DNA of 64,000 nucleotides from Nemertoderma westbladi (Eukaryota > Animalia > Xenacoelomorpha): NCBI GenBank assembly GCA_032718475.1, contig JAUCBJ010006452.1, forward strand, positions 1 to 64,000, given 5' to 3'. The notes beneath the pieces are model-generated. The model did no database searches. It was not told where the DNA came from and worked only from the letters and a program-made list of their open reading frames with translations. Position 1 is the stretch's first letter, and the number at the start of each line of letters is the position of its first letter. The translations under genes and the position numbers were made by a program. This document shows positions 2,946-40,709 of this stretch, piece after piece.

Positions 2946-3023
2946 CCGCTTTTTGAAATTTATTTCCGCTCGTTTATTAGTCCATACATCCCCAGGTTGG
3001 AATTTATGTAGAGTGCTCAACAT

Positions 3024-5276: not shown

Positions 5277-5812
5277 TGTTAGCGAATCAATCCCGCCAAT
5301 ACTCCACAAAGTTGAGCCAATAAGCAATATTGGGGGACACGAGATTGGGTACCAACCAACTCGTGCCTCCCCAACAGAATGGGAGAGAGAAGCACACAAT
5401 AAGGGTCAGGGGTTAGTATCCTGACAGAAGAGGGAATAGCTGGGGTGAATGGGAACACCCCAAAGGGCGCCAACAAGGGTAGCAACCAATCAGAGGGGGG
5501 CTGGCACCGATTGAGTATCGATAAGGCCACCATGCAATATAACCAGTAAGCAGTAATCACATTACCTCAGTTATCTCAGTGTTACTGGTGGTACAGTAAG
5601 TTACAATTAGGGAAGTACCGGGATTTTAGTTACCGTCGTCCCGACAGCCATTAATGTTAGTGTATAACATCAATCTATATCTATATCTATATCACATCTC
5701 AACGTCAGAATATAACGAACAACAATAACTCCAACTTTATACTCTTTCATACGGCGGGGACGCGTGAACTAAACCGGATAAATCGGGTTCATCTCCGGAT
5801 GATCCCGTCACA
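5277..5812 (+). repeat. 5' LTR of A1
   Basis: Matches 15354-15889; TGTTAG...GTCACA termini. Confidence 0.97.
5484..5572 (+). promoter_or_regulatory. LTR pol II promoter: CCAAT, TATAA (5538), Inr TCAGTT (A at 5569)
   Basis: TATA lies 31 nt upstream of the Inr A; the same arrangement is kept in the diverged A2 LTR. Confidence 0.65.
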
Positions 5813-5880
5813 GTTACTAAATAACAACTGCTGCCCTAGCCTAATAGACTCAGATACCACCAGCCACCAACAGACAAAAG

Positions 5881-8800
5881 ATGAGCGAGTCGGGTGAAGT
5901 GACACCCACGCGGACCCCGGACGACGAAGATCTAACGATCCGCGAGGCCGCGACCAGGCGATATAGGCCCACGACACCGGAGCCACTAGTAACGGGCGAA
6001 CCGGAGAGTCGAGAGGAGGGGGACCGCCTGGAACCAGAGATCGAGCCGGAGAACCAAGAGATCGGGCTCGAGGGAGAGAGAGACGAGTCGACACGCAGCG
6101 GGGATGTCGATACCAACGTCGCGGGCCAGCCACAGGCCGAGGGCGACGACCGGCACACCGAGACGGCGACGGTGGGGCCGACGGTACGACGCCGGACCCG
6201 GAGAGACAACGGGGATGTCGACACCGATGTCGCCGGCCAACCGCAGGCCGAGGGCGACGCACGGCCCACCGGAACGGCGACGGTGGGGCCGCCGGCACGA
6301 CGTCGAACCCGGAAAGACGGACGAGGAGTCGGCGACGAGGACGTCGGGGTTTCCGAGCGACTTCGACGGGCCTACAACGCGACCCGGAGACTGATAAAGG
6401 AGGCCAGAGAAGGGAGAAGGATAGACGAGGTAAAACTGAACCTAGGACTAGGTGAGTCAAATAGACATCTATACTATCTAATGCGTTTCGGGCAGAGAGG
6501 GTTGGCCGAGGAGAGAGCGACATGGGTTGCCGAGGAACTGTATGACTCATGGCGGCATGGGAGTATACAACCTAGGGTAGTGTACTTAGGGCCATACTTA
6601 ATCGATGCCCGGGGTATAGAAACAGTGGGGTGGAACAGACCAGAGGAGGGCGAACCCGAGGTTGACCCCGCGGGTTCGGTCTCGTCGGTCGGAGGGAGTT
6701 CCGGAAAGGGGGGGAAAGCCAGCGGGTCGGGAAGGCGGAGGGAATCCGTCGCAACCGATAAGTCTGTTACATCCTCCGAGAAAGAAAGACGGGTGAGAGA
6801 GATAGAGGCTAGACACCGTCTCAATCTAGCGGTAGAGGCGAATAGAGAACTAGGTAGACGGCTAGAGGAGGGGAGAGTGATGATAGAGAGGGAAACAGTG
6901 TCGATTAATGAGTTGAGGGAAAGGGGCGAAAGGGCCGCGAGGAACCTTAGGGAGTATGAGGAGATAGAGTTAAGAGAAGAGAGGGAACGCGAGAGAGAAC
7001 GCGAGAAACGTGAGGTAGAACGCGAGGAACGCGAGGCGAGAGAACGCGAGGAACGCGAGGCGAGAGAGAGAAGGGAACGAAGGGAACGCGAGGAGAAACG
7101 CGAGGCGGAACGTGAGAAACGTGAGGCGAGAGAGGAAAGTGAACGCAAAGAGCGTAAGGCGAGAAGAAGAGAGGAGACTATGAGAGAGCTGGAATTGATC
7201 GAGCAGGAAAAACGAGAGTCAAAGGAGAAAGTAACAAGAGTGGAGAGTGGCCGAATAGAGTTAGAGAAACAGCGAGACGAAGTCGCAAGGTATACAGCTG
7301 TGCACGCGTGCGAGGTGGAACGGGCGCGGGCAGGAGTGTCTGAGAGAGGGGCAGGCTCGAACACTTTCGAGGAACCGGGGGCCGTGGATACGTTTATTAA
7401 TACTCCACTAACAGGGACCACACTACGGACACGAAACTGGTGTGATCGTACGAGCGGGGGGGGGGGGTAATAACACTAATACAGTAGATAACGCTAATAT
7501 TAATAATACTGTATTGGACGACTCTAACCAAATCTTTATTGCAGGAAATACGTTACCTAATAGTAATAATAATATTTTAGATCAGAACGATTCTAATATT
7601 AACGTACAGAGTAATTCTAATGACGTAGTTATACAAAATAATTCAAATAATTTAAATAATAATGATTCAAATAATTTAAATAATAACCCGAATTCGATTT
7701 TACAAAATAATCCGAATACTGTTGTAACGCAAGATATTATTTCTAATTTTGGTGCGCAGGATAATCACAGTGGTATTATTAATGTAGACGTGTCCAACGT
7801 ACATAGCCCGGCGGGTGGGGGCCTGGTAGGCCACGTAGTCGGTAGGCCGGAGACGGCGGGGTTAAGCCAACCCGAGGTGGGCCTGGTAGGCCACGTAGTG
7901 AGTAGGCCGAAGACAATGGGGTTGAGCCAACCCGAGGTGGGCCTGGTAGGCCGCGTAGTCAGTAGGACGGAAGTAACGGGGTTGAGTCAACCCGAGGTAG
8001 GCCTGGTAGGCCTCGTAGTTAGTAGGCCGGAGACGGCGGGGTTGAGACAACCCGAAATAGGCCTGGTAGGCCAGGTAGTAGTGGAGAGAGGGGCGGGGGT
8101 AAGCGGACCCAGCCCCAATGTAAATGTTGTGTCGACGGGAGAAAAGTGCAGAGGTGAGGTGAGAGATAGTGAAGTAAGATGTGGCGAGTGGGGGGGGACT
8201 ACGAGCGCCCCACCCCGTGAGATTAGCGGCGAGAGGGGGGGGGGGGGGGCAGAGAGCGCCCCACAAGAAGGGTACGGAAGTGTAGTAAGAGGTACCGAAG
8301 TTAGAAGTGGCGGGTGGGGGGGGGCTACGAGCACCCCACCGCAAGAAGTTAGTGACGAGAGGGGGGGGCAGAGAGTGTCCCGCAGGCGTCGGCGGATAAT
8401 GCGCGGGCCGAAGTAGGTAAACCGCAACACCCGGCGACGGAAAGTAGTAGGGGGACCGCGAGTATCCCCAGCGGCGTGCGATCGAGCAGAGAGATGCAGG
8501 TTGACGTCGCGAGAGGGCGGACGGAGCGTCGAGCCCAATCAGAAGAGAGAAGAAGAACAGTGGAGTTTAACCGGGAGGTCGACGAGAGATCTCACGAGCG
8601 GGAATACTGCACTGAGGGAAGAAGAGGAGAAGTTGATAGGAGAAGCATCGCCGCGAACGATAGAAGAGTGAGGACGGATAGTGAGCCGTCGGTGATTGAG
8701 ATGGAAGAAGAGAGTCGGTGGGGTCTGACGACGGGAGATTGCCGTCGTCCCGGAGAGACGCGACCCGACGAGGCGCACTACGCGCCGAGAGAGAGGTACG

Positions 8801-11800
8801 TGACGTACCGACGCGAAGAAGAGAGCAGCAGAGGGGGTCGAAGGGAAACTTTCCGTCGGGATGTACCTACCGATCGAGAATACGGCATCCGCGGGGAGGA
8901 CTATTCGAGAAGAATAAACTTCGATCCCGAGCGGTACATACAGACTGTAGGACATACTGTAGGCCTTACTGCACATACAGTAGGCCATGCTGACAGGAGC
9001 ACCGTAGGTGGTAGGATAGCGCGGACAACGGAACTAGACCCGGAAGTCGCGGAATACATTCCGGTAGGTAGGCCAGAAGCTGATAGGCCTATACCGGTAC
9101 CAGTGCAGCAGTATGACTACAGCACCAGAGGTTATAACATATACCCAGGGGAGGGGGGAATTATTGCGGATAAATGCATGGGCCCCAATATATTAACATC
9201 AACCCCAGTACCAAACATACCGGTGGGGGGGGGACAGGGTGACATTCCCCCATCGCAATATCAACAATATACCCCGGTAGGAGCGAGAACAAATCCGTCG
9301 GACGAAAACAAATCGTGTGACACAGAAATATGGAGGGGGCCGCTACCCCCAATGATATACCCAAGTCAGAGGAGAGCAGAGAATAGAACGGGTGGACCGC
9401 ACCAAACGAGGGAAGCCATGCAACATCCATCGAACCCATTAGAGGCGCAAGCAGTGGGGATGGCCACGTTAATCGATGCGTTAAAAACAAGGATCGAGTT
9501 ACCACCCGTGGAACCATTCAAATTCGATGGGAGTAGGCCGGAAGAATATCTTCAGTTTCGGCGCATGTATAGCAATGAGATACTAACGAAAAACTTGACG
9601 CAGGCAGAGTGCCTAAAGTATCTACAAGTATACACAGGAGGCCCAGCATACGACATCGTGAGGCAATACCAGGGTATAGAAGGGGGCTTCACGACAGCAT
9701 GGCGGGCACTGGATAGGGAATACGGGCACCCAGCTAAGATCATCAGGCAAACCCTGAGAGGCATAACAACGGGTGGCCTACAGGATAATCCCGTTAGCAT
9801 TAAGACGTTTGCTAACAAAGTTGAAAAGGCGCTGATCGTGCTAAAGACGTTGGACGCACCATATGAGCTCAACGCCTCCAACAACATCACCACGATAGCG
9901 CAGGCACTGCCGATATGGCTGCGCAACAAGTGGAGAAGAGTCGCTTTCTCCACTAGAGACAGGAAGGGTGCGGAACCGGGTCTAGAAGAAATGTCCAGCT
10001 TCCTAAGCTACGAAGCTGAACTGATAACCGACCCAGTCTATAGTGAAGATAGTCTGGGAAAGGGACCAAAGACGGACTACCATCGACCGAAACCGGAACA
10101 TAATACGTCAAATTCATTACCAAAGCTCAGACAGTCACTGCCATATGCAGCGACGCAGGGGACTGCGAGTCCACAAGTAGCAGAGAGTAAGGCCGGACAG
10201 GGGAAAAACAACAACACGAATAAACATAACCCCAATACATCAAGTAGGCCGAACACAAACAATAAAAACAGTAGGGACTTTAGTACAAATGCAGTTGCGA
10301 TACGCGATGCATTGTACAAAGACGGCTACGACTCAAAAGCAAAATGTCAGCTACATGCAAATGGAAAACATCTAACCATGAACTGCAGCTACTGGCAGGC
10401 ATTACCAAGAGAAGACCAAGTAGTGTACGCGGATAAACATGAGATCTGCTCACGATGTGTGATGGGTGGACATCGAGCAAGGCAATGTAAGGAGACGCCG
10501 GTCAAGTACCGTCGAAATAAAGGCCAAACAATGGCGACGAGCACAGCAGGGGCGAAGAAGAGAGGAACGGTGCTACTTGGAGTAGTACCGGTGCGAGTGA
10601 TTGGGGAAGGCAACCGATCAGTAACCACTCTGATGCTGGTCGATAGCGGAGCTGCCTTCACTTTAATTGAGGATTGGGTGGCCGAAGAAATAGGACTGAG
10701 GACGAGGCCAAGTAGAATGGCAGTAACAACCATCTCGAGCAAAGACGAGGTCCTAGAGATGAGAACCGGACGGTGCGCGATTGCAGCAGTCGCACCGGGA
10801 TGTAACTACGGGGCAACCATCGACCCCATCCAAGTGATAGAGTCAATCAATATCAACGCCAGGCGACCAACCAACATCGAGGTCGAGCAATATAAGTTCC
10901 TGGATAATATTGACTTCTCGATCCCGGAGGTGGACGTCAGGAAAGTATCCATCATAGTAGGCATGGACTGCCCGACGGCCCACGAGAGAATACAAACGGT
11001 CTTCGGCGAAGACAGGGAGTGTGACCCAGTGGCGATATTGACACCATTCGGGTGGACACTGACAGGCCCAATCAAGAGTAATATTCCATTCCATGCATCT
11101 GAGAGTTCAGGATGCATGGTGCCAGGAAGTGTTAACGAGACAGAGGAGAGACCAGAGATGGGCAATAGTGGCAGAGAGCTAGAAGTGGAAGCGACACCAA
11201 GAGAGTGGGCGGAGGAGAATGGCATGGATGCAGAGGATCTAGAGAGGATGGGTTGGAACAAAGGTCCCAGCAAGTATCGGTGTGGAGATGGAGAGGAGCG
11301 GACGGCGATATGTCTGGGGGACAGGCCGGAGGAGCGTCCGGTGGAGTGTCCGGAAGAGACGCCGGTCCGGTTGGGAGGCATGCCGACAAGGGGGAGACCG
11401 AGCGGGACGACAAGGTGGAAAGGGAGAAGATTTGAGACGACCAGACCAGGGGCGGGGAAGCCCGTGGGTGGGCGTGTGATAGACAAAGGAGCTGGGAAAG
11501 TAGCTCTAGGCGTGCCGCATACGCACGCGGGACTGACAGATTGTGAGGGGGCATTACATGGGCAAAGAGCGTGTACACCGAAGGACGAACGGGGGTCGTC
11601 GAAGCCTTTAATGCCAGCACACATCTTAAGGGGGAGGCCAGTAGAGATGGCATCTAAGATTAAGGAGAAGAACAGGGGCGGCATTATACCGCCGAACGAC
11701 ACGTTGAAGGGTGGCACTCTGCCGCCAAAACACGACCACGAATTAAGAAACATAAATAAAAGACAACACTTACCTATTAGGCATGAGAAAAAGACACCTA

Positions 11801-11898
11801 TCGAATTGACAAGGAGAGTGGAGCGAAGAATTAGAGGACCTATAGGGGGGAAGTGGGAGAGTTGCCTGCTGGAGGAATCACCCCTTGGGTCGCAATAA
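5881..11898 (+). CDS. gag-pro: Gag-protease polyprotein of A1 with in-frame pol remnants; two G-run frameshifts
   Basis: ORFs 5881-7470, 7442-8416 and 8476-11898 join if the G runs at ~7456 and ~8361 are corrected. BEL gag core PFKFDGS..EYLQF, Cys/His knuckles (CSRCVMGGHRARQC), protease LVDSGA; no YxDD. Confidence 0.85.
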
Positions 11899-12099
11899 GT
11901 TGGACCGAGAGGAAAGAGACAGATACGTAGAAGTGCGGGTAGAGGTGTTACCTGTCTTTTAGAGGGAGCGCCTTGATTCTAGAAGTGGAGGGAGTAAGTT
12001 TGTGTGTATATTATTAGTCGTCCATTTTGGACTGAGGGGGGTGGGATTGAGGGCTAGACGCCCTTCCCACACAAAATAATAAAATATAATAAAAAGAGT

Positions 12100-12722
12100 C
12101 AGTTAGTTAATTAGTTAAAGGTCTGTCCGCTAGTTAGCTAGAGTAGTTAGAGGGTACGTAGTACCGCTAGTTTATAGGAGTTAGTTAATTAGTTAAAGGT
12201 CTGTCCGCTAGTTAGCTGAAGTAGTTAGTTGGTTAAGGGTACGTAGTACCGCTGGCTAGCTAGAGAGTAAGAGTTAGGGTAGTTAGTTAATTAGTTAAAG
12301 GTCTGTCCGCTAGTTAGCTGAAGTAGTTAGTTGGTTAAGGGTACGTAGTACCGCTGGCTAGCTAGAGAGTAAGAGTTAGGGTAGTTGGTTAATTAGTTAA
12401 GGGTACGTCCGCTAGTTAGCCGGAGTAGTTAGTTAGTTGAGGGTACGTAGTACCGCTAACTTGCTAGAGAGTAGGGTAGTTAGTTAATTAGTTAAGGGTC
12501 CGCCCGCTAGTTAGCTGGAATAGTTAGTTGGTTAAGGGTACGTAGTACCGCTGATTAACTAGAAAGTAAGAGTTAGGATAGTTAGTTAATTAGTTAAAAG
12601 GGTCCGCCCGCTAGTTAGCTGGAGTAGTTAGTTGGTTAAGGGTACGTAGTACCGCTGACTAACTAGAGAGTAAGAATTAGTTAGTTAATTAGTTAGGGTC
12701 CGCCCGCTAGTTAGCTTAAGAG
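12100..12722. repeat. ~100-bp bipartite tandem repeat, ~6.5 copies, between pol remnant and accessory ORF
   Basis: Recurring TTAGTTAATTAGTTAAAGGTCTGTCCGCTAGTTAGC and GGGTACGTAGTACCGCT. Confidence 0.92.
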
Positions 12723-13173
12723 TTAGAAGTAGGGATATAGATATAGATACTAGTTAGTAGTTAGAGGGGGGCATATGAGTACAGTCGGATAGATCGTGTA
12801 GGCCACGCGACACATACTACTGTACTGCATAGACCCACAGAGTAGGCCAGAATGTGGATTAGAAAGTAGGATAATTCACAGGCAATAGTAAGTAATAGCA
12901 CGGCAGGGCAAGAAATAAATAGTATAGGGCTGAAAGTTACGAATTATGGTAACAGTAGAGAAATTATTCTGGAACATAATAAAAGTAACGGACAGAAATC
13001 GTAATTAGGGTACATTTGTTAGCTAGGGAATTAGATAAGAAACAATATAAGAAAAAGGCGCAAATTAAGTAGAATATAGGCCATTATCGAACCGAAACAT
13101 CGTAATACATCACTCATCTGTACTGCGCCTTGGTAAGGCACCACCTTGCAGGTGAGCGAGTGTAGAGTTCGGG

Positions 13174-14667
13174 ATGGCGAGCAAGTTGATCAGGAAGAGA
13201 AAGGCAGAGTCAGGAGGAAAGGAGACATTGGTGGACTTCACCAAGAGACATCCGGAAGAGAAGACGAGAGGGTACTACGAACGGTTGGAGAGGGGTCACG
13301 CAGCACGAGCGCTACAAGACCATTTCAGGGAAGTGCAGGAACAGCGGCTGGTCGGGACCTACGGGACACCGTCGCTGGACAACGCGATATCCCAACACTT
13401 CCACTATGTAGTAAAGGGAGACGAAGAGAAGTTCGGGATTCCGAGGTACGCCAGGGATTCGCCGAAGAAGGATTGGAAGAGGTTCGTAGAATCCGTCAGT
13501 AGAGGAGGATATATGATCCTGGATGACGAGGGAACCGTGGAAGACGGGAAGGGACATAGTGGGTCAACCGGGATACCGGGATTGGAACCACTGCGAGAGG
13601 AGGAAGAAGACGACGACGAGTTCGGGGAGATGCCACCCATTGCGAGGATAGGCCGCTCGGATACGGACTGGGTTGGCGGAAGAGTGGTGACGGCCAGTGC
13701 GGCGCGAGCCTTCTGGGACACGCCCGGCAAGCGGGCCTGGGTGCACGAAGAACCGGCGATGGATTTCGCGGGGGACACCATCAGGCTGGGCGAACAACCG
13801 GGAACGGCACCACGGGTAGTATTCGGGGAGACGATGCCCGATAGGGGCGGAGAAATCGACGTAGAAAGAGACAGCAATGTGGAAAAGTTCGCCTACCAGC
13901 GACTCCATAGACCGCGGAGGTCGCTCGGGACGAGAGACGACGTGGGGCGGGAGACATTGGTACTAGGCTGCGACTACTGTGGGAGACAGACCCACCAGGA
14001 AAGGAGCTGTTTGTATCGGTTCCAGAGGGGAACCTTTTGTCTCTACTGCCGAGAAACAAGCCACAGGATGGGAGCGTGTCCACGGTTACACAACCGATGT
14101 CCAAAGTGCCACTTCCGGGGACACTACGGACGCCAGTGCGACTGGATGGACGACGAGGAGAAGTTCGCAAGGTTCGAGGAGTGGGCCGACGTAGGGGCTA
14201 TGACGCGCCAGCGCATGAAGGCCCAGGAGTTCAAGTGGGGTTTCTTTCTCATAAACCAGGAGACCCACATGGAGATCATAAAGAGAAGGTTACCGTTTAC
14301 CTATCAAGAGGTAGCGACGGCGGCGTCGTACGCCGGAGTTATGAACACGCAACGGTACCTGGACAGATGGACACCGGAGAACCGAAAAGAGTTTAGGGAT
14401 TTCTTGACGGAACACGTACCGCAAGCAATGAAAACGATCCTATGGGACGCCACCAGAGGGAGGCAACCGGGCCACTCTGAGGGACCACCTGCGAAGCGGT
14501 ATCGGGCACTAATAACACCAGCGCCCAAGGAGCCAACAACCGGAATCAGCAGGGAGGTGGCGGCAAAGGTCCGAAAACACAAAGCGGATCCCAGAGGAGC
14601 GGTGATAAGCAAGAAACGACCCAGGGAGGAGGACGCCAGGGGGAACCACCCCCGAGGGAACAGATAG
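13174..14667 (+). CDS. Accessory ORF of A1: ExoI-motif remnant plus three zinc knuckles
   Basis: 497 aa. GYMILDDEG; CDYCGRQTHQERSC, CLYCRETSHRMGAC, CPKCHFRGHYGRQC. Collinear similarity to the B1 accessory ORF. Confidence 0.8.
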   Translation: MASKLIRKRKAESGGKETLVDFTKRHPEEKTRGYYERLERGHAARALQDHFREVQEQRLVGTYGTPSLDNAISQHFHYVVKGDEEKFGIPRYARDSPKKDWKRFVESVSRGGYMILDDEGTVEDGKGHSGSTGIPGLEPLREEEEDDDEFGEMPPIARIGRSDTDWVGGRVVTASAARAFWDTPGKRAWVHEEPAMDFAGDTIRLGEQPGTAPRVVFGETMPDRGGEIDVERDSNVEKFAYQRLHRPRRSLGTRDDVGRETLVLGCDYCGRQTHQERSCLYRFQRGTFCLYCRETSHRMGACPRLHNRCPKCHFRGHYGRQCDWMDDEEKFARFEEWADVGAMTRQRMKAQEFKWGFFLINQETHMEIIKRRLPFTYQEVATAASYAGVMNTQRYLDRWTPENRKEFRDFLTEHVPQAMKTILWDATRGRQPGHSEGPPAKRYRALITPAPKEPTTGISREVAAKVRKHKADPRGAVISKKRPREEDARGNHPRGNR

Positions 14668-15353
14668 GTTCCAAGGAGGCGAGGGAGTAGAACTGAAACT
14701 AGCACGTGGTATGCCTGGAGGGCACCGCACGGAACGTACGAACTATTAAGTAATTTAATTAATGCAAATATTCATATAAGTGCAATCTGTACGTACGTAC
14801 GTAGTAATCAGTAATAAAATACATACGTTCGGAGTAAGTACTATAGTCATACAACCTTTCTCAACTAGCTACTGGGAATGGGGGGCTAACATGACTATGG
14901 GACTATGGACGAGACATGAGACGACTTCACACCACTTGAGTGCGACGGCACGGGGGGGGGGGAGGTGACATTCGTCAGAGTGGATGAGGTAGTCAGTGAG
15001 GGGTCGAGGAGAGAGTCAGATAGAGCGGAGTGCGGAAGGAGTGCGGGCGCAATCCTATAGTGGGAAAGTGGTAAGAGAGTGAGTAAGGGACAGAGAAGTC
15101 CAAGAGTAGAGTGAGAGTTAAGGGCGAAAGTGTTGGGGAAACAAAAATCGTGTGAGAGGTGAGCGCGATCGGCCCGACGCGGACGCCAGGCATAAAGGGT
15201 AGCGTTATCATACCCAGAGGGAGCGGCCTGGAAAGTCGACTCCAAAAGAAAAGATTTCCACCCCACACCCGATGCTAGATCGGGATCCAGCGGGATTGTA
15301 ACGCACTTTAAGGTTTGATGCTATCTTCACCGGGAAGATAGCATGGGGGGGAG

Positions 15354-15889
15354 TGTTAGCGAATCAATCCCGCCAATACTCCACAAAGTTGAGCCAATAA
15401 GCAATATTGGGGGACACGAGATTGGGTACCAACCAACTCGTGCCTCCCCAACAGAATGGGAGAGAGAAGCACACAATAAGGGTCAGGGGTTAGTATCCTG
15501 ACAGAAGAGGGAATAGCTGGGGTGAACGGGAACACCCCAAAGGGCGCCAACAAGGGTAGCAACCAATCAGAGGGGGGCTGGCACCGATTGAGTATCGATA
15601 AGGCCACCATGCAATATAACCAGTAAGCAGTAATCACATTACCTCAGTTATCTCAGTGTTACTGGTGGTACAGTAAGTTACAATTAGGGAAGTACCGGGA
15701 TTTTAGTTACCGTCGTCCCGACAGCCATTAATGTTAGTGTATAACATCAATCTATATCTATATCTATATCACATCTCAACGTCAGAATATAACGAACAAC
15801 AATAACTCCAACTTTATACTCTTTCATACGGCGGGGACGCGTGAACTAAACCGGATAAATCGGGTTCATCTCCGGATGATCCCGTCACA
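15354..15889 (+). repeat. 3' LTR of A1
   Basis: Matches 5277-5812; followed by TSD TTGGT. Confidence 0.97.
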
Positions 15890-19341: not shown

Positions 19342-20548
19342 TGTTCGCGCTTTCAGACCTTTGGCAGTTTAACCCGCCAAATTATGATGTCTTCTAGATA
19401 TTAAATCGCTTTTTAGCCTATGACAAGTATTTGATTCACTACACTAGTCGAAACCAATCTGTGCGCGATCATTCACCCGCTGGATATACCCGGGGGATTG
19501 GGTTCGACGGTTTAATCTTATTGCTATGTAAGCCTAACGTATTATTCGACTGACAGTATTATATAATCTCTGACAATATTATTCACCTTCGGGGAATATT
19601 AACAGTTCCTTTAGGACGTGGCGCTCTATCCATATAAACAGAGTTATGACTTAAACTACTCACAACGATATGGCTTAATTATAATTCACATATATGGCGC
19701 ATTCTTTAGGAAATGCTTCTTTAACAGACTCACTCATACACAATGCTGCACAATACTGCACATTAATCCGCCGATCTTCACTGATTTTAGTCACATATAA
19801 AAGGAACACCGACTGACTCATGTAGGGTCTATCAAATAACATTAGATTCACTTCAAACCACTTTAACATAAGTCACAATCGATATATGTAACCCTTCTCT
19901 CTTACCTTCGGTATATCAAGAATATTGGGTTTCGGGGTTGTTTCTCGTTATTCCAAATATAATAATTCATCCACAAATATAATGAATAACCGACAGCAAA
20001 GCAGTAATGTTAAGTTAAGTTGCACAGTATGGGCCAATTAACCAGTTTGTTTTGAGTTAAGACAATCAGCAATTAGTTTGCGAGTGATTCGTTAGTTAAA
20101 GGATATATGTCCTTATAATTAAACCTACTAGTGTGAAGCTAAAAAGCATAAAAGCACAAAACACTACAAAGCCGTTCTTTCGTGGCTTTGAAAAACTCGT
20201 GACTACTACTCTATACGAGGATACCAACTACCCTTATTCCACGAAGCTCCCGTTCAACACAGAGAAAGAGCAGTGAGATAGGAAAATTTCAGTTCAGTAG
20301 CTCTGTGATAGGTCAAAATCAAAGCTAACTCAAATTCTATTGGGAGATACAAAAACAGGGCTATGACGCAACCTCCCTAGGCTGGTTGTCCGATTAAACA
20401 GAGCCCAGTTACCTGCTTACAGCAAATCAGCCAATAAGCTGGTAGCTTGCACTATTTTAGTTATAGATCCCCTTTAGAGTATTCTAGCGACCGGGGGGGA
20501 ACTGGCCAGCAAAGCAAACGAACCAGTTATCCCACAAAAGCTTTTACA
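19342..20548 (-). repeat. 3' LTR of B1
   Basis: Near-identical to 36694-37900; TG..CA termini. Confidence 0.97.
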
Positions 20549-20626
20549 CCGCTCCCAGAAAATGGGATTTAAGTCTATAAAATATACAAAATTACAGTTT
20601 CTAAAATATAAAAATACTCTAAACAG

Positions 20627-23600
20627 TTAGTCTTTCTTGCGCGGACGGCGTTTACGCAGTTTCTTGAGGCTAGCAAGAGTCCTTTTCTCTTTGGGGCGAG
20701 CCACTTTATGAGGAGGGCTGTAGCTCCTAGGTGAAGGGTGCAATACAATTGCATCAGAAGGTGTAGGGTTACGATCGGTATACCCGCCGGTCGAAGTACC
20801 TGGTTGATTAATATCAACCTCAGTGGAGCGAGGTCTAACGGTCTCTAGAGCGCGTCTCAGGACAGCAGCTCCTACGGGTCCCTGACGGGTCGTCTGGACA
20901 CTAGCGGTGGGTGGACCGTGAGTGGTAAGGAACTTTCGCGGTTTAATGGTTCTCTCCAGCTTGCGTTCTCGGGTTTGATATTCATATGGGCGCCGAGATA
21001 CTTCCTGGAGTTCAGGATGCGAGTTCACAAAAATGTCGCCATACTCAGGGTCCTGACGGATAAAATTGATCAGGTGATATGTAGTTATATCATTAGGGTT
21101 GACGTTTCTAAGGTATTTTCTGACAAACTTGGTGGAAATACACTCACCAACACGCTTCATTAACTCGTAACTGGGTACGCATGTTTTCTGTTCAATCGAC
21201 GCAAATAGGTAAGGATGGAACTCGTAAACTCCCTCGTAAGCTCGTCCAGGGTAATAGCGATGTCTGGATTCGCAATGTAAATCTGCGTTTGCTTCCCAAG
21301 CTCGAATGTATCGCAGGGTGATCATTTCGTCTACGCTCTCTAAATCGCGATTAAAGGGACAATTGTAACTTTCATGTCCTTTAAGTTGACAGTAGTGACA
21401 TTGAGTCATAAATTGTGGGCAGAAGGCAAAAATATGAGAGTTATTAAGTCTGCAATAAGCACAATATATTTCCATCATCGGTTGTTCGAGGAAATAGGAG
21501 CAAGGTGCGTTGGAGTCGAGAGGAGTGAAGTGGTCTCTCGATGCGCATAATCGACAACGTTTTCGAGAAACGTAGTTGGCGTGTCGATAATCGTACGCTG
21601 TGAGACGTTGTGGACCTTGATACCACTCTATGACATAATCATTGTCACTGCTCCGGGAAGCTGTAGGCTGAATCGCTTCTGATTCCAAGCATACTGGCTC
21701 ATCCTCCAGCTGCATAGACGAAGTGGGTGCGTCTGTTTCCGTAAGTGGACCCACTGTCTGTATTTCCACGACAGAATAACCTATAGGTATTCGAGGTCTT
21801 TGTATAACCGATGAATGTAAGTTCTGTATACAAATTTCTTGAAAAACGGCAAATCCAGCGCTACTCAGTTTCTCAGCAGCTGAGTCTCTCAGACTGAGTT
21901 TGGTCAGCGCGCGGTCCTTGAACTGACTATCAACGTTACGGAACGGAGTCAGGAAGCGCCGGAAACATTCAAAACGTATAAACTTATTGTGTTCGTCTAA
22001 CTTGGCGAGTTTAGTTCCAAGTATCAATGGGTGAGCGCGTATGGTACGACTGCACACATCGGCTAGCCAACCGGCAAGTGCTGCGTTTTCAAAGATCGTG
22101 CATATAGCTAAGGAAGGACGAAGTGGAACACTCATAAAGCTATACACGGCACCAGGCGCAGTTAATGGTCCATCGAAATATAAACGAGAGTAATGATCTC
22201 CATATACTTGCTGGTAATTGATAGGATTTCCAACCTTGAAATTCCAACCATATTCTTGAAAGGCAAGATGTCCGATGGATGTCCGTTGTACTTTAGTAAT
22301 GCCGCAGGGGGTATTGGCATACATAGTGCGAAAGAAACCTCGGCCTTCGGCCCAAGGAGCAATCAGCTGAGTATCAACGAAAGGGTATGGAATGTTCTCC
22401 ATATTCCGGAAGTCGTTTTGGAGGTCTCCATAAACAGCTGAGCCGATTTTTAGAATTCTTTCGTTAAACAACATTTCGAGTACAGGTTGGGGTAACATTG
22501 ATCCATCGATACCCATGGCCGGTTTGCGCTCGGTGTCGGTGACGTAACGCTGCGCGAGCTCGAATTGTCCATGTCAAAGTTTCTTTTGTATCTCCATAAG
22601 AGTTTCAAAAGAATAATCAATCACGTCGGAACACGCTCGAGTGAATACGTGGGTAGAACCAGCAAGTCCTCGTATATGTATCATTCGCGTGGTTCCTAAT
22701 TCTCCCACCGGAACGCTACCTTTGTTGTCATAAGTAACAACGCCATACATCTCGATAACGTTAAGAGTCTCGTTCCATTCTTTAGTGGCGTTTTCGAGAG
22801 TCATTCCCACTGGATGCCATAAAGTAGCGCACTCATTAGCATTGGGTAAATCTCTATACTTTAAGCATTGTGTAGTATAGGTTTCCACATCTCCATATCT
22901 TTTTACTCTTTCTTCCTCGAATAACACGTCAAGATTCCAGTGCACTAATCGAGTTTTAATGAATCCATCAAGATTGTACGGAGGTGATGTTTCTTTCTCT
23001 ATTCTAGAAATATTATACGGTTTTCGAAATGAGTTTAATTTAACTAGCTGATCTAGATGTTTTTGTAGTTGTTCGAGTTCGACAAGATCGAGAGGATTGA
23101 TTAATGGTAGGAACCTCAGACTATGCGTAGGATCTTCCGGTTTCACCATGTAATATTGCTTCAAATTGACGTAATAAGGGTGATCCTTAATTCCATAAAA
23201 TGAGTCCGGCAAAGGTCTAGCGCGTATGTTAACATCGTGCACCATGCGACGGACAAGATCCGCTCTATTGTCCGGAGGCTCAACAAGTACGCCATCGACA
23301 CGAGCAGCCTCGACGGGTGGACGTTGTAGCATGGGAGCGTCAGCAACGAGCTCGTGAGATCTGAGATCAGTATTAACCGGTTGAGGCTGTACCGTAGCAA
23401 AGAGCTTGTCTTTAAACTGAGGAACCATCAAGGGGTGGAGGATCGTTTTGGAATAGAGATCCGTCACTAGAATTTGAACTTCTGGTTGGGCTAAAGCTGC
23501 TTCTTCCCTCTCAGTCAGCTCCATATGTCTCTCCTCGAGCTGATTTTCCTCCGCTTGTTGTTGCAAGCGCTCGTCCAGGAATTCCTGTAAAGAGTAGGTT

Positions 23601-24719
23601 CGTCCACGTTCTATGTCCTCCTCTAGATTTTGTATTTCTCTATCGAACTGGGGTAAAGCTAGTTCTTTCACCGCTTGGACTTGTTGTTGCAATTTACGTT
23701 TCTCCAAGCAATCGTAAGTTCCTTTTCCAATTTTCTGCCGAATAGCGTCTAATGCATTTCGTATCACGCTCTCTTCGACTTCTGTAACAGGTTGGATCGG
23801 AGGAAGGCCAGGACGGTTGTAGGGGTTAAACGGTGATATTAGATGACCGCGTCCTAGTCCAGCGAGGTAAGGTTGGCGAATAGCAAACAAACCCACTACC
23901 GGAGTGCCACCAATCAACTGTTCAGGTAACACTAGATCTTTGAACAGTGAGTACAGTTCGGGAGGATCCGTAATACTATTAGGATCTAGAGTTTGAGGTA
24001 TCACTTGGGAATGGGGAGGTCTGACCGAGTATTCCGGAACTCTGATCATGGGTTTATTCAATGATCGCTTAAGGCGCGCGACCGTAGGTGATACGTCGAA
24101 AAGGTTACGCTCGAAACTCCCATAAGTATATCGTGTAAAACTGTGTTTAGCACAACGTCTCCGAGGATGTTTATGCCTTTCGATTTGCTGGTTAGGTCTA
24201 GGGCATTCATCACAGTAATACCAAAGACGCACATCTTGAAGGGGAAAAGCGGGTGATCGCTCTCCAGTTTTACAATATTCCTCCATCTGTTCGAAGCTAT
24301 CTGGAACGACAGGTAGCACGTTTATCAGGTTCTTCAACGTCTTCTCTTTCGAGTTTGTTTCGAATAGAGTTCTCGTGTTCTATTCTCGATTTATCGTTTC
24401 GACTCCGCTGGGTATGATATTTAAATAAAACCATTTCCCTTTTGGTGTCTACATCGTCCGTATCGTGTAAATCGATAGGGTGACCAGTAGTCAAGAAGTC
24501 CATATACATACCATTACGATGCGTATAGCGAGCCGTGAACTTTCTATAATCCAATTCACGCGTAAGTTGCTCCTGGGACATTGGCGGTTCGATATAACAA
24601 CCATTGTCCTCCGTAGTAGTTGGATCAGCGTCGCCGCGTATCAAGCTATCAACAAACGCTTGAAAAGGTAGAGTATATCTCTCCCTGATACCAAGATCAT
24701 CTTCTATTAATTCAGTCAT
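20627..24719 (-). CDS. Accessory ORF of B1: DEDDy (WRN/EXD-like) 3'-5' exonuclease-like domain plus three zinc knuckles; one in-frame TGA and one frame offset
   Basis: ORFs 22574-24337 and 20627-22516 share a frame with a single TGA between them; 24297-24719 is offset by +1. Motifs GVVTYDNKG, LPQPVLEMLFNERILKIGSAVYGD, FVDTQLIA, SIGHLA, PLT...Y; knuckles CRLCASRDH, CAYC..H..C, CHYCQLKGHESYNC. Confidence 0.8.
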
Positions 24720-26351
24720 ATCTGCTATACGAGTTCACCAATATTATAATGAGTTTATATATTGTTAGGCGAGCGGGCGTCGCTGCCTATTTCTCCCGTG
24801 CCCCCAGACAGTAAGAGATTCTCAGCGCCGATGTACCGCTGTAGCTGTACTTTCGCCAACGACGTAGCTGTACAACGACAACGATAACCGGCACAAGTCA
24901 CTCCACTGTCCGTCCCAAAGGCTTAGATGTACTTCAGGTTTTCCTTGGAGAGTTAGGTTACTTTCACGATTGCGACTAGCTACTGTAAACACACTTTAGC
25001 AGTAACATTCACCTATAAACTCACAAATACCACACAACTTGTCACAACTACACACATTCGGGCCATTTGTCCGTTAGTCAATGCCTTCCAGAATGTCACT
25101 GTATTGTTATGTTTCCTTGGATACTAGCAGTGCACTATTTATTCCCTATGCTATTCAATGGGACAAGCTTTCTATTGTTCTTTTAACTCAATTCTAATTC
25201 TAGCGTGGTTTTTGCTATGTGACATTATGTAAAGCTAGCGGTAGAATTAGGGTAATTCCAATGCATACAGATCTGGGATGTTATTTAATAGTAATTCTTT
25301 AATAGTCAATGTCCTGTTTTATACATGACTTTATGAATTTTATCGGCTATTGACTATGTTTGGGAGACTTTCATACACGCATACGCATAATAATATAAAT
25401 CTCCGCTCCCTTGATCTATTAATTAATGGAATTTTGGGAATGTTATAAATTGCGTAAAATGGCAATTTATTAAATTCATTAAAAGACATGAATTTAAATT
25501 TATTCCCTGAAATTTTATTATTTGATAATTAAATTGACATATTTTGATTCCAGAACATCCTTAATTCTATGGAAATTGTCCTTTTAAGAATATCGGTAAA
25601 TGCGACGATATCTTAATTGACTAGAATTGTTGAAGGATCTGAATTTTACAGATTTTGACTTATTAGATTTGCAAATATTAAATAATTAATATTTGAGATG
25701 GGCACCGATTTATTCCAGAACTTGTCTGGGGACGTTAACCACTGATTCTATAATTTGTCTTTCAAGTATATCGGTGGGTGCCACGATATCTTAATCGACT
25801 AGAATTACAGATGGTCAAAGGGTTTAACAGATTTATTTTGCGTTATACGCTACTGTTAAAGGGACATCACGCTACTATATGTATTATTTAATATACGGTA
25901 TGAGAGCAATATCGCACGAAGCAATGTCAGTGTGAAGAGGCAAGTCGTTTCCAAGGTCTACCCAGAGCTTGGTTTAGCCGAGACACGAGGATCTGAACTT
26001 TGCATTCCTAATACTCTGCCTACCAATAATACTTAAATATAGTAGTGGCTTTATTGTACTTTAATAAGTACGGACATTTCATCTTACTGTAGTTACGTAT
26101 TTATAATATAATACGGACAGTAAGGAAGAGAAAAAATAATTATTTCTTCGCCGTCTCACTAAATATAATATAAGTAATTACGTACGTAATAAACACGAAT
26201 ATATTGCACTATTCTACTAAATAATCGCTAAATAATATTCTACTAAATTAAATAAAACGATTATAATAAAATTACATAGTAATACATACATAAAATATAA
26301 AATAATAAAATAATATAAAATAATAGAGTCACACGCCCACTCCGAACGATA

Positions 26352-29300
26352 TTAAGTTGGGGAGCCCCTAGATGTCGGTTGAATTAGGGAAGTGGTCGTG
26401 GGAAGAGTTTCTTGCCTTCCATAGTTTCCGGAGAGCTCTCTGTCTCTTTCCAGTAAACATAAACGACCCACTGGGCGGTTGAGCTGTTGAGTCTCAAAGA
26501 CTATCCCTGGTTTCTTAAAGTTACGACGCATGACGACGAGTTCTACTGATCGCACTAAGCCATCGCTCGAGATATAAGTCTCGATGATTCGTCCTGTTTG
26601 CCATCGCTTACGTGGGAGATCGGGGTCCACAATAAGCACCATGTCTCCAGTGCTGACGTTTTCTTGCTGCGCAAACCACTTAGTTCGAAGTTGTAGAGTG
26701 GGCAGGTAATGTTTCTCGAAATGGTCAGCGAAATGACGGGATAGCAACTGCATAAGTTGCCAGGTTCGACGGCAGTACTCGTCTCCGTCGGTGATCTCCG
26801 ATTGTGGGAGCATGGCTACGGGCTTCTTCAGCAGAAAGTGCGCGGGTGTTAGCGCTTCCAGGGAATCAGGATTTGAAGAGACTGGCATAAGCGGTCTTTC
26901 GTTGAGATAGGCGGCGATTTCCTCCATTAACGTCCGCAATAATTCGTCGGTGAGATAAGCGCGACAAGGCACAACAAAGTGGAACGCAGTCTTCACGCTC
27001 CTAATCAATCTCTCCCAACTTCCTCCCCACCAAGGGGCGTCGGCGGCATTGAAGGTCCAGCTAGACGCTGTTATCTTTAGCTGATTGTCCACCTGTCTTC
27101 CGTTCCAGTCCTTTATGTAAGCTTGAATTTCGTTGTTGGCGCCAATGAAGTTCGTTCCCTTATCCGATCTCATCGTGTTACTGGTTCCGAAGCGAGCGAT
27201 CTGTCGTCGTAAACTCAACACGAAGCTGTTGGTGGATAGATCGTTTACCATATCGAGATGGATAGCTCTACAAGTCATACAAACGAAGATGACACACCAT
27301 CTTTTGACTATAGTCCAGGCACGATATACTTCAATAGGGCCAAATAAATCCACACCGGTATTAGTAAAGGGTGGTTCATAGAAGCTTACTCTTTCCCTAG
27401 GTAATTCTGCCTCTCGCTGTGTTAAAGGCCTACTGAATGCTTTCCTACAGGGTATGCAGTTCCTAAGAACTTGGTTCAGAGCCCTACGGGGTTTATAAAA
27501 ATAGTAGCGAGTTCGAATTTCGCTCAGAACTCTTTCTCTACCAGCATGGTACAGTTTGCTATGAACATCTACAATTATCTTGATTTGTATGTCAAGATTT
27601 CTAATGAGGATGGGAAACTTAGTGTCAAAGGATAATGGGGCGTTAGTTAGCCTACCTCCAACACGTATTAATCCATCTATCATGGTACTAGAGAAGCGAT
27701 CCCTTAAGCGCATCTGCGGATTTCTTAACAACAGGAAATACTTATCGGAATCCTTATAGCATTGTAGGAGTCTTAGCATCTGTTTGTTGGTTTCATCATG
27801 CTCCTGGTAACTGATCTTCTCCGTTAGAAACCTGTCGGTTATCTTGTACTTTGGAAGATCTTTAACAGCATGTACTCGTGCAGATGTTGATGGAGCATCA
27901 TCACTATTGGTCTTTGTCCCGGAGTAACGATGATGAAAACATCGTTTCAAATAAGTAACAGCTTTACAAAGCCGATTCCAGGAACTGTAGTGACGTATCG
28001 CTCTCTGCAAGAGAGGTGAGAGTCCTTGCGAGATATCTGGTATTCCAGATTTCCAATCCTTGTCACGGATTTCCAAGATTTCTTTGGTCGTAGCAGTGGG
28101 TTTCTGATCCAAAGCATCCTCTCCGGAAGTAAATAATACAGATAGATCAACCGCAGGTTTAAACAACTTCGATTTACTCGCTCGAGTTTTGGGTTTAACT
28201 TTCTCCGCTCCCTTGGCCTGTCTGATCTCTGCTGTTGTGAGATGGGGAGGCCATTCCTCTTCTTCTCGGTAGAGAAAGTCAGGTCCTCCTAACCATTCGG
28301 GAGTATTTACCAATTCCTTTGGAGTTGCTCCTCGGGAAGCGATATCCGCTGGATTAATCGTTCCGGGGCAATGTCTCCATTGATCCATCGTCGTGCGACT
28401 AAGTATGATGGCTACTCTGTTGGTAACGAAGACGCTGAACTGACAGACTTCATTGGTTATATACTCTAACACGAGTAAAGCGTCGGTCCAATAGACAGTT
28501 TTCTCTAAGGGATAGTCAATCTGTTCTGTTACATTCCGGCCGATGGCTGTAGCGTATAGAGCCGCCTTTAACTCCGCTCGAGGAACTTTCAACTTGTTGT
28601 TGATTAATGCCTTAGAAGTAACCAAGGCGACTTTGATTCCATCCGGAGTTTCCACTCTTAGATAGGCTACTATACCTATTCCCATATCGCTGGCGTCTCC
28701 AAACACATGGAGTTGATAGGAATACGTAGGGAGAACATGACCAAAATATGAACGGGAAATTATAAAATCCTCGATAGCAGGTAGGGAATCTTCCCATTTC
28801 ATCCACTTCTTCAATAATTCTCCCTTAAGTGGATCGTCCCATGAGTGGTTTTCAAGCCACATTTGTTGTACCAAACTACGAGCAATCAATATAACTGGGC
28901 TAATAAATCCCAATGGATCGAAATAAGTGCTCAGTATACTTAAGCAAATCCGTTTGGTTCGAACGGGATTATCTCGCTGTTTTAGTTGGAAAAACAGGAT
29001 ATCTCTCTCTGTGTCCCATTTCAAGCCGAGTGTCTTGGTTTCTGGCAGATCATCTTTGATCAAATCGAGATCTTTCGCTCCTCGATCTTCCGCAGGGATC
29101 GACTCCAGAAACTCACGGGAGTTGCTGGTGAATTTCGTTAATCTAAACCCACCTCTTTTTAAGCACTCTACCGTTCCTTTTGCGACCTCAATGGCTTCTT
29201 CAACTGATGGAAGGGACTTCAGATTGTCGTCCATGTATATGTCTCGCTTGATGTTGTCGATCACTTCCTTAGAGAAGGCCTCTCGGTTGTCTTCTGCAGT

Positions 29301-34427: not shown

Positions 34428-35789
34428 GTTCGTGTGTACAGTTGAATGCCTACTGCTATATTACAGTCTGAGCAAGTCTAGTAATTCAGTATTAACTGCT
34501 AGCCTAGTAATTAATTACCGATACTGCTACTCAGTGCAGCGTGATATATATATAATATATTAGAATACCGGTATACTTATAGTATATATAACTATATAAG
34601 TATTATTACAGATACAGACTAGGTTTATCTCAGAATACCGGTATAATTTTAGCACAAATATATGAATATATAATAGGCCTATCGGTAATACCGGTATACA
34701 GCTTACAGTTTGTAGTATATATAATTCTGGACTAGAATTAAGTACAAGTACCGGTATAATTTCAGCCTAAATTTATAGAAATAAAGATAATAGGCCTATC
34801 GTAAATACCGGTATATCAATTATTTTAAATAATTGAATTTCTGTACTTTAGGGTTACTTGGTTACTCTACTTACTTTATTACCGTTATTTGAGCAGTAGT
34901 CCAACTGATATTGAGACCTAATGGTTGTATGGTAGGCCTACTATTTATAAATCGTTAGATTTGATTTACAATATATATATATACCCGTTTTAATGGGTTT
35001 TGTCAATGTTTGAAATAAATGTTATTATTTCTGGGGAGTAATCACTACACAAAGCGGTGCGCTTTCAGTGAAGTGTTACTTATAGGACACTAAAACAAAT
35101 AATACTAATTTACCTAAGTTACTTAATACTACAAATTACGTACGATTCGGTGGTGATTACAATCTCTAAATAAACACAAAATTTTACAAAAAACACGAAA
35201 CACGAATTTTCAGGGTAATTTTATAAGAAGTCTACAAACCAGCCTAACAAAGGGTTAGAATCTGGTTACTACAACGGACAGGGTACTACGGTATTTGAAA
35301 ATAATAAGTAGTAGTAAATACACTGCGTTGTCCAGATAGGAAAATACCACCGCCTGACGACCTATGGCCGTATCGCTATAGGTACTACGTTATGTATCAC
35401 GGAGTGTTCCTACCGAGAAGTTAATAGAGCTAATCGAATGTGCCTATCAACCACTTTACAACTCAAATATAATGCCTACAACAATTACTTTCGGAAAGCA
35501 CTGTACACTAAACCCTAAATTAGGTACGAGTACTTGTACAACAGATAATCAGTAGTTAAATATACTTGAACAGCTAAAAGAACCACGGCATCTGCTGGAG
35601 TAACCGATGCACAAAATCACCAGTCTTTACCTACGCCAAGCAGCCCGTGTAGTACCGGGGTTAATTTAACTATAACGGTATGTATAACAAACACAATTAC
35701 TGTAGGAACAAACTTTGGGAATATGAATGTTGCGAATAATCGCATAAACTCTGAATAATAAATATTACGCTACGCGTACAAACTACTCA

Positions 35790-36330: not shown

Positions 36331-36693
36331 TACAATCTGATCAGGTTTACACGCCTTCTGTTCAATACTGGCCTACTAACAAATAAAACTGACAGAAATA
36401 AGTAAGCTCCAAAAGAAACAAGGGGTGTACAGTCCCTAATCTCTTAAACAGCCTACCGGTATACAACAATCAAGTCGAATAATACTAATGTACTTATACG
36501 GAAGTACCGGTTAGGACAGTTGGGCCTACGGACCTACAGAAGTACCGGTTCTGGAAGTTGGACCTACGGGCCTACGGCAGTACCGGTTCTGGCAGTTGGG
36601 CCTACTGACCTACTGAAGTACCGTTCAGGTTTACCGGTTGACCGGTACTTTCAACTTTATTGCTTACTGCAATAAAGAAGCTATATCCTTTAA

Positions 36694-40680: not shown

Positions 40681-40709
40681 TGTTTTTTCATCAAAAGTTA
40701 TTTCATCAA

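What the first reader, a model, noticed from the sequence alone, without database searches (positions are those of the whole stretch)
13174..14667. The second, very divergent BEL family has a homologous accessory ORF, pointing to an old shared gene
Collinear blocks, A1 vs B1: FTKR..YYERLERGH / FTAR..YMDFLTTGH; YG-x13-YVVK / YG-x13-YMVK; WKRFVESVSRGGYMILDDEGTV / WNETLNVIEMYGVVTYDNKGSV (identical spacing, A1 keeps DxE); three knuckles; FEEWADVGAMTRQR..WGFF / WEANADLHCESRHR..EGVY. The two families share no visible LTR or DNA similarity, so the ORF probably predates their split and may define an undescribed BEL subclade. A1 has lost most of the exonuclease body yet remains one open 497-aa frame, suggesting the knuckle plus 'ExxAD..RxR' module is retained under selection.
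Basis: partly seen in the sequence, partly recalled or inferred. Interest (0 to 1): 0.85.

Follow-up and report, generated by a model that had tools for sequence, protein, structure and literature searches.

The report
Nuclease-knuckle third gene of BEL retrotransposons
Two very different BEL/Pao jumping genes in an animal genome carry versions of the same extra gene, an RNA-trimming-type nuclease domain joined to three zinc knuckles, which also sits behind the polymerase gene of dozens of other BEL elements; the nuclease is often predicted dead or is missing, so the protein likely works mainly by binding RNA.

Summary
The homology holds, but through a wider family rather than the listed blocks. 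Pairwise, A1 (13174-14667) and B1 align significantly only at the knuckles. A1 alone retrieves 79 proteins. Their N-terminal domain is a DEDDy 3'-5' exonuclease (EXD2 E 9e-13; Nibbler Z 15.7). That profile hits B1 (E 2e-14), and B1's knuckles outscore 120 gag-pol controls. A DNA motif scan gave 120 loci; 30 of 33 with at least 5 kb upstream have a BEL pol there. ORF3 distance tracks pol distance (rho 0.83). So the gene is old and far wider than an A+B subclade. Only 25 of 63 members keep DEDD; B1 is predicted inactive. A1 has at most a weak ExoI stub, and other exonuclease-less forms exist. The FTKR/FTAR and YG blocks are unsupported. A-family differences are mostly synonymous (18 of 32). Closest in print: DEDDy ORF3s of rotifer LTR elements. 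The scan noted Rrp6-type ORF3s on other DNA but no look-alike of this sequence. New variant; function untested.

The parts
5277..15889 (+). Element A1: non-autonomous BEL/Pao LTR retrotransposon (gag and protease, no RT/RNase H/integrase). LTRs 5277-5812 and 15354-15889; 5-bp target duplication TTGGT
   Evidence: contigs joining across the whole element (empty site) in 3 of 3 runs
8356..11898 (+). A1 gag (DUF1759) and aspartic protease frame; similarity to A2 ends at 11118
12101..12726 (+). Roughly 102-bp tandem repeats between the pol remnant and the accessory ORF
13174..14667 (+). A1 accessory ORF3, 497 aa (P0001); no Pfam hit
13474..13542 (+). Candidate ExoI stub (WKRF..ILDDEG); weak support only
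   Evidence: best site in A1 1-260, 17 of 2000 shuffles; 10 to 255 of 1000 with other profiles; hhalign E 0.056
13969..14139 (+). A1 triple Cys/His zinc knuckle
   Evidence: 53.2 bits against the family profile, 0 of 300 shuffles
14173..14247 (+). A1 post-knuckle motif FEEWADVG..T..R..WGFF
   Evidence: 39.9 bits, E 2e-14; 0 of 1000 conditional shuffles
19342..37900 (-). Element B1: BEL/Pao LTR retrotransposon. LTRs 19342-20548 and 36694-37900 (99.6% identical); target duplication TAAAT
26352..34460 (-). B1 gag-pol, 2702-aa open frame (DUF1759, protease, Peptidase_A17, integrase Zn finger, DUF5641)
20627..24719 (-). B1 accessory ORF3 in three pieces (24300-24719; 22574-24379; 20627-22573), broken by a frame change and an in-frame stop
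   Evidence: third-position excess against B2 in pieces 1 and 2
22130..22777 (-). B1 DEDDy-fold exonuclease domain, predicted inactive: ExoI D present but no E, ExoII D present, no ExoIII D
   Evidence: E 2e-14; hhalign 96.9%; coordinates
21224..21556 (-). B1 triple knuckle and decayed post-knuckle motif
42543..47200 (+). A2: truncated family-A copy with LTR, gag, protease and RT up to YVDD; cut off by a satellite before ORF3 (end approximate)
57124..64000 (-). B2: second family-B copy lacking about 2.7 kb of ORF3 (exonuclease and knuckles); runs off the window
   Evidence: the same joint (20771 to 23523) in 3 of 3 runs

Best explanation
A1 and B1 each carry a copy of one old third gene of BEL/Pao retrotransposons, a DEDDy-type exonuclease domain followed by a triple zinc knuckle and a short helical motif, which likely acts as an RNA-binding adaptor on the element's own RNA rather than mainly as a nuclease. 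Shown: the homology, the domain order, the position between pol and the 3' LTR, the agreement of ORF3 and pol distances, and the frequent loss of catalytic residues or of the whole nuclease. Inferred: expression as a separate, probably spliced message (a candidate acceptor TTGCAG|G lies about 20 bases before the A1 ATG); nuclear import (basic clusters at both ends); binding of element RNA by the knuckle module to protect, export or localise it, with the nuclease fold as an optional trimming or RNA-binding add-on, as in the inactive DEDD derivative EXD1. Family A keeps only the knuckle module, and B1 keeps a predicted dead nuclease. I put the homology at about 0.93 and this mechanism at about 0.45.
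For: A1 retrieves 79 proteins at E up to 0.001, nearly all through residues 255-400. Of 31 with at least 330 aa before the last knuckle, 27 hit the exonuclease profile (partly circular, since 25 profile rows are such hits). The profile of 28 long hits matches EXD2 (E 9e-13), WRN and Egalitarian. The AF2 model of P0133 matches Nibbler EXO at Z 15.7, rmsd 3.0, 199 aligned, and has a second confident domain at about residues 490-620. The family profile hits B1's exonuclease and knuckles (32.7 bits against at most 15.1 for 120 gag-pol controls). BEL pol lies upstream on the same strand in 30 of 33 loci with at least 5 kb upstream, and 38 of 42 pol-bearing loci hit the exonuclease profile. Mantel rho is 0.83 over 23 elements, 0 of 2000 permutations. 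DEDD is intact in 25 of 63 ungapped rows. Exonuclease-less forms occur in L047 and L059 and in the P0123 and P0129 clusters. A-family differences: 18 of 32 synonymous against 27% expected, p 6e-4, and 4 of 4 in residues 256-400.
Against: No RNA, binding or activity data. The knuckle looks invariant partly because both searches were anchored on it. B2-type copies that lack both exonuclease and knuckles are multi-copy, so the gene is dispensable in cis. About 40% of members keep all catalytic residues, which argues for real nuclease use in some lineages. B1's post-knuckle motif adds no score, and a profile from the 42 loci alone hits B1 only weakly (E 0.0016). The 32 differences are the best-supported rows of about 308, not a random sample.
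Confidence: 0.45

Rival explanations
1. ORF3 is a counter-silencing factor. It mimics host small-RNA 3' trimmers (Nibbler/mut-7, EXD1): active forms over-trim piRNAs or siRNAs, and dead or knuckle-only forms act as decoys.
For: The top fold matches are the Nibbler EXO domains, with EXD1 also listed. Nibbler trims piRNA 3' ends (PMC13269885 passage). Rodriguez et al. raise a mut-7-like role (PMC5408684). Fast divergence and repeated catalytic loss fit an arms race.
Against: The Nibbler Z score (15.7) is only about 1-2 above NrnC, RNase D, WRN and Rrp6 (14.3-13.4), so the fold does not single out the piRNA pathway. By sequence the best match is EXD2. No small-RNA data.
Confidence: 0.25
2. The ancestral job is catalytic: trimming 3' ends of element RNA, tRNA primer or cDNA during reverse transcription, with the knuckles as a tether. 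Dead and truncated forms such as B1 and A1 are decaying or rely on active copies in trans.
For: 25 of 63 rows keep DEDD, mostly with Y. Dada DNA transposons carry an intact DEDDy domain proposed to process 3' ends (PMC3706591). B1 is broken in two places.
Against: Whole groups of inactive members keep long open frames with BEL pol upstream (for example L031, L037, L062, L069). The exonuclease-less A ORF shows a synonymous excess.
Confidence: 0.2
3. Families A and B obtained the gene separately, by exchange from a pool shared among retroelements, rather than by descent from their common ancestor. This concerns history, not function, and can hold together with any mechanism above.
For: A2 and B1 pol are closer to marine BEL pols (means 34% and 43%) than to other carriers (25% and 28%). 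A1 and B1 ORF3 do not group. ORF sharing between retroelement types is reported in rotifers (PMC5408684).
Against: In the careful tree all 17 carriers fall on one side of a starred branch (98/94) against 20 marine pols, and ORF3 tracks pol among the other carriers. The tree is unrooted, and whether those 20 elements have an ORF3 is unknown.
Confidence: 0.25
4. A1 and B1 share only generic CCHC knuckles and are not homologous genes.
For: Pairwise alignment is significant only at the knuckles. The B1 post-knuckle block is not significant.
Against: B1 independently matches the exonuclease of the family found with A1. Its knuckles score twice the best gag control. Domain order and genomic position are the same.
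Confidence: 0.05

Closest known systems
DEDDy exonuclease ORF3 of bdelloid rotifer LTR retrotransposons Juno and Vesta, shared with Athena/Terminon elements (PMC5408684; part 2 of 5 of the text and keyword passages read)
   Same: Separate third ORF after pol; DEDDy/RNase D-like fold; function untested.
   Different: [quoted passage not shown] Catalytic residues are intact there (DEED). 'CCHC' has 0 occurrences in its text. Here the nuclease is fused to a triple knuckle plus FExxAxxG..WGF module and is often dead or absent. Sequence relationship to the rotifer ORFs was not tested.
Belpaoviridae (Bel/Pao LTR retrotransposons; ICTV profile PMC8742986, whole text read)
   Same: LTRs, gag and PR-RT-RH-IN order, polypurine-rich tract before the 3' LTR.
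   Different: The profile names only gag, pol and env. B1 is 18.6 kb against the stated 4.2-10 kb. The bases after the 5' LTR do not begin with TGG.
Cellular DEDDy nucleases EXD2, WRN, Nibbler/mut-7, and the inactive relatives EXD1 and Egalitarian
   Same: Fold and ExoI/II/III layout; EXD2 catalytic set D108, E110, D171, Y242, D246 (PMC6648332 passage).
   Different: Low identity (14-19% in the top fold rows) and different partner domains. The donor gene is not identified. Egalitarian being inactive is recalled; EXD1 is stated inactive in PMC5408684.
CERV of C. elegans Cer1 (PMC10309623, passages read)
   Same: Functional analogue only: a retrotransposon accessory protein with a Cys-rich finger, needed for export of genomic RNA.
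   Different: Gypsy-type element, C4-type loop, no nuclease; homology not tested.

Membership tests
BEL/Pao (Belpaoviridae) | LTRs with TG..CA ends and short target duplication | tested here: met
   A1 TTGGT and B1 TAAAT
BEL/Pao (Belpaoviridae) | Gag-pol with Pao-type domains in PR-RT-RH-IN order | tested here: met
   B1: PF03564, PF05380, PF17921, PF18701. A1 has gag and protease only; A2 has RT to YVDD matching the BEL profile
BEL/Pao (Belpaoviridae) | 18-nt tRNA-Arg/Gly primer-binding site | tested here: inconclusive
   No TGG start after either 5' LTR; host tRNAs not available
Named BEL clade (Sinbad, Suzu, Tas, Pao, BEL, Dan, Flow, Sparrow, Surcouf) | RT grouping with reference elements | not testable with these tools
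DEDDy 3'-5' exonuclease | DnaQ/RNase D-like fold (family member P0133) | tested here: met
DEDDy 3'-5' exonuclease | B1: homology to the domain | tested here: met
   E 2e-14; hhalign 96.9%
DEDDy 3'-5' exonuclease | B1: four acidic catalytic residues | tested here: not met
   ExoI D-N-K and no ExoIII D in the alignments
DEDDy 3'-5' exonuclease | A1: ExoII and ExoIII present | tested here: not met
   No hit with whole-domain or post-ExoI profiles
DEDDy 3'-5' exonuclease | A1: ExoI stub homologous | tested here: inconclusive
   p about 0.01 at best over several profiles
Rotifer Juno/Vesta DEDDy ORF3 | Sequence grouping with those ORFs | not tested
   Sequences not in hand
Env-like ORF3 | Fusion glycoprotein domains | tested here: not met
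   No Pfam family in A1 or B1 ORF3; the family matches nucleases and knuckles instead

The most novel reading that the evidence does not exclude
A deep, undescribed branch of BEL/Pao elements has carried a captured Nibbler/EXD2-type nuclease fused to a triple knuckle since its origin and uses it against the host's small-RNA defence. Repeated conversion to pseudo-nuclease or knuckle-only decoys would make it an animal retrotransposon-encoded suppressor of piRNA silencing.
Probability: 0.2. Interest if true: 0.85.

Novelty: new variant of a known kind. Interest (0 to 1): 0.55.

Why it matters
Third genes of BEL/Pao elements are described as env-like. This one is an unannotated, vertically tracking nuclease-plus-knuckle gene with no Pfam model, present in dozens of elements. 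It comes as a natural series of active, dead and nuclease-less forms, which makes an open question directly testable: what a DEDDy nuclease does for a retrotransposon (RNA handling, end trimming or counter-silencing). It also gives a marker for an under-sampled part of BEL diversity.

Tried and rejected
No whole genome is held for this window. Pfam gave nothing for A1 or B1 ORF3. The word-indexed search with B1 piece 3 found no homologue, and with the 28-row alignment only its own first row. The PDB sequence search with B1 piece 3 gave only E above 1.6. The single-sequence fold of B1 piece 3 was unusable (pLDDT 32.6). The ESM Atlas gave only generic CCHC clusters below 0.9 for A1 and 3'-5' exonuclease clusters at 0.94 for P0133 25-280. 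The search for related loci could not use the 75-row alignment. The motif found 0 matches in viral contigs. No RNA holder listed. The N-terminal parts of A1 and B1 have no significant match among the loci ORFs and hits. An alternative reading of A1 36-66 as the exonuclease's GLGH block was no better than chance (16-24 of 300 shuffles; 71 of 1000). The pol control and one gag control were out of frame; the in-frame versions are the ones used. L071 is a chance motif match in bacterial-looking DNA. Literature: searches listed no paper describing a BEL/Pao exonuclease-knuckle ORF; 'exonuclease' has 0 occurrences in PMC3118150, PMC6238403, PMC13524379 and PMC9094657. The library lacks most subscription papers and Repbase. 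I recall, unverified, that some C. elegans Cer (BEL) elements were said to carry an RNase D-like accessory domain; if so, novelty drops.

Full report
Setting. The window is eukaryotic repeat-rich DNA; no genome is held. A1 is a + strand LTR element at 5277-15889 with 536-bp LTRs 99.8% identical and a TTGGT target duplication. It encodes gag and protease but no RT. B1 is a - strand element at 19342-37900 with 1207-bp LTRs 99.6% identical, a TAAAT duplication and a 2702-aa BEL/Pao gag-pol. A2 and B2 are truncated relatives. Both families are multi-copy in three public runs from two studies, and contigs join across the empty A1 site.

Checking the observation. The motifs exist, but only the knuckles align above chance pairwise: BLASTP E 5e-7 and 0 of 300 shuffles. 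The WKRF/WNET block gives E 0.085. The FTAR block of B1 is in a different frame and scores at the shuffle mean. B1's ORF3 is in three pieces. Pieces 1 and 2 show third-position excess against B2 (28 of 50 and 105 of 212 differences; intergenic control 49 of 145; pol control 215 of 328), so they were coding.

Finding the family. phmmer of A1 against 1.84 billion representatives gave 79 hits, nearly all over residues 255-400. An alignment of 28 long hits shows an N-terminal conserved domain, a low-complexity linker, three knuckles and an FExxAxxGxxTxxR..WGF motif. Its profile matches the EXD2 exonuclease at E 9e-13, then WRN and Egalitarian. An AF2 model of P0133 is confident at about residues 30-280 and 490-620. 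It matches DEDDy nucleases by Foldseek and by VIA-align (Nibbler EXO Z 15.7, rmsd 3.0, 199 aligned; RNase D, WRN and Rrp6 at 13.4-13.7). The C-terminal module was barely tested by that search.

Linking A1 and B1. The exonuclease profile, built without either window protein, hits B1 at 39 bits, E 2e-14, 0 of 300 shuffles. hhalign gives 96.9% and includes the WNET block as ExoI. In all six frames of the window, the profile from the 25 phmmer-hit rows finds only B1 (E 1.9e-12); the profile from the 42 loci alone finds the same place weakly (E 0.0016). B1's knuckles score 32.7 bits against at most 15.1 for 120 BEL gag-pol controls. Against this, B1's post-knuckle block adds nothing (312 of 1000 shuffles). 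A1's ExoI stub is the best site in its first 260 residues but only at p about 0.01, and several other profiles did worse. A1 has no ExoII or ExoIII.

Context elsewhere. A degenerate DNA pattern for the last two knuckles, matching 57 of 80 proteins in hand, gave 120 loci in metagenome contigs (scan stopped at its limit; about 300 estimated) and none in viral contigs. Of the 80 loci with long flanks, 67 hit the exonuclease or post-knuckle profile and 42 have BEL pol upstream on the same strand; 38 of those 42 hit the exonuclease profile. Of 33 loci with at least 5 kb upstream, 30 have BEL pol. The others are L022 (weak gag and integrase-tail remnants, so probably a deletion derivative like A1), L012 (no pol) and L071 (chance match). 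L013 and L023 show flanking direct repeats. None of the 30 representatives looked up carries an informative name, so hosts are unknown.

Catalytic state. In a 67-row exonuclease alignment (near-copies kept), 63 rows are ungapped at the catalytic columns and 25 keep D, E, D, D. B1 has D-N-K in ExoI and no ExoIII D. L047 and L059 have pol, a closed ORF with about 580 residues before the motif and no exonuclease hit. The P0123 and P0129 clusters are 305-371 aa with the knuckles near the start. So loss of activity or of the domain has happened more than once. The caveat is that every search was anchored on the knuckles.

Selection on the A ORF. In three runs all 30 bins over 12900-14800 are covered. 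The 12 best-supported indels (of 36) all lie outside the ORF, and no listed joint adds a block at the ExoI stub; loose ends near 13546-13569 come from single contigs and 490 loose-end rows were not shown. Of the 32 listed substitutions inside the ORF, 19 are third-position and 18 synonymous against 27% expected (p 6e-4); residues 256-400 have 4 synonymous and 0 non-synonymous, the tail 1 and 6. These rows are the best supported of about 308, and the runs do not show which copies are autonomous.

Phylogeny. A2 and B1 RT regions are 33% identical. Quick trees put both next to 20 marine BEL pols and apart from the other carriers (97 and 99 SH-aLRT). In the careful tree (LG+G4, 37 rows; five near-duplicate loci dropped, P rows thinned to 20 of 120) all 17 carriers are one side of a 98/94 branch against those 20 pols. 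A2 and B1 were sisters in 0 of 200 bootstraps, but the pairing is not rejected (p-AU 0.22). Among 23 carriers, pol and ORF3 distances correlate (rho 0.83, 0 of 2000 permutations; near-copies inflate this). The short ORF3 tree does not join A1 and B1 and is poorly resolved. All trees are unrooted, and the ORF3 status of the 20 pols is unknown. So the gene is old and mostly vertical; a single clade is allowed, not shown.

Mechanism. The piece kept in every form seen is the knuckle module, and CCHC knuckles bind RNA (established for Gag NC and Lin28, which the profile also hits). I therefore favour an RNA-binding adaptor for element RNA, analogous in role to CERV (PMC10309623, passages), with the nuclease optional (0.45). 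Counter-silencing through mimicry of small-RNA trimmers (0.25) and essential end-trimming (0.2) remain. None is tested.

Comparison with print. DEDDy ORF3s are described for rotifer LTR and Terminon elements (PMC5408684, part 2 of 5 and passages; passages of PMC5718144, PMC6338049 and PMC6431247) and a DEDDy insert for Dada transposons (PMC3706591, passages). The ICTV profile lists only gag, pol and env for Bel/Pao (PMC8742986, whole text). Ten searches listed nothing on this architecture. Supplements of PMC3118150 were not read and may hold such elements unannotated. An unverified recollection of an RNase D-like domain in C. elegans Cer elements could reduce novelty. Earlier scan notes describe Rrp6-type ORF3s in LTR elements of other genomes (not checked by me), and no look-alike of A1 ORF3.

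Verdict. Observation partly confirmed; homology supported; the subclade is much wider than A+B. New variant of a known kind, interest 0.55.

Noticed in passing
window 13735-13905 (A1 ORF3 residues 188-244): The linker matches repeats of an immunoglobulin I-set protein (P0185, E 3e-4 summed over 9 stretches; best single stretch weak). It lacks the Ig Cys and Trp, so it is probably chance, but a captured host fragment in place of the nuclease is not excluded.
   Followed up: partly
window 13145-13152: Candidate splice acceptor (TTGCAG|G) about 20 bases before the A1 ORF3 ATG.
   Followed up: no
window 5813-5845 and 36660-36693: Neither element has a TGG-starting primer-binding site after the 5' LTR (GTTACTAAA.. 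and TTAAAGG..).
   Followed up: no
window 20771-23523 against 58636-58639: The 2.75-kb ORF3 deletion of B2 appears as a joint in all three runs, so a subfamily without exonuclease and knuckles has spread.
   Followed up: partly
window 1561-2973 (-): piggyBac-type transposase (PF13843) split by an in-frame stop.
   Followed up: no
window 40655-42578 and 47220-47975: 36-37/73-bp satellite arrays bracket A2 and cut it just after the RT YVDD motif.
   Followed up: no
window 5848-8416 and 43131-45228: Family A has long low-complexity frames before gag (Glu/Arg-rich coiled-coil-like and Asn-rich stretches, 60-bp and 111-bp repeats) in both copies; no Pfam hit for 5848-7467.
   Followed up: no
window 54105-54854 (-): 249-aa Cys-containing frame with hydrophobic ends, possibly a host membrane or secreted protein; only a sub-threshold Pfam match, E 0.064.
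   Followed up: no
window 17342-17875 (-), 38766-39539 (-), 51151-51618 (-): Fragments that look like LINE reverse transcriptase and endonuclease, judged by eye from the translations.
   Followed up: no
L022:6428-10375: Apparent BEL deletion derivative with gag and integrase-tail remnants that keeps ORF3, parallel to A1.
   Followed up: partly
P0122: Family member with the knuckle plus post-knuckle module duplicated in tandem.
   Followed up: no
L005, L043, L051: Members with 900+ residues before the exonuclease, like B1's long N-terminal extension, but with no detectable similarity to it.
   Followed up: partly
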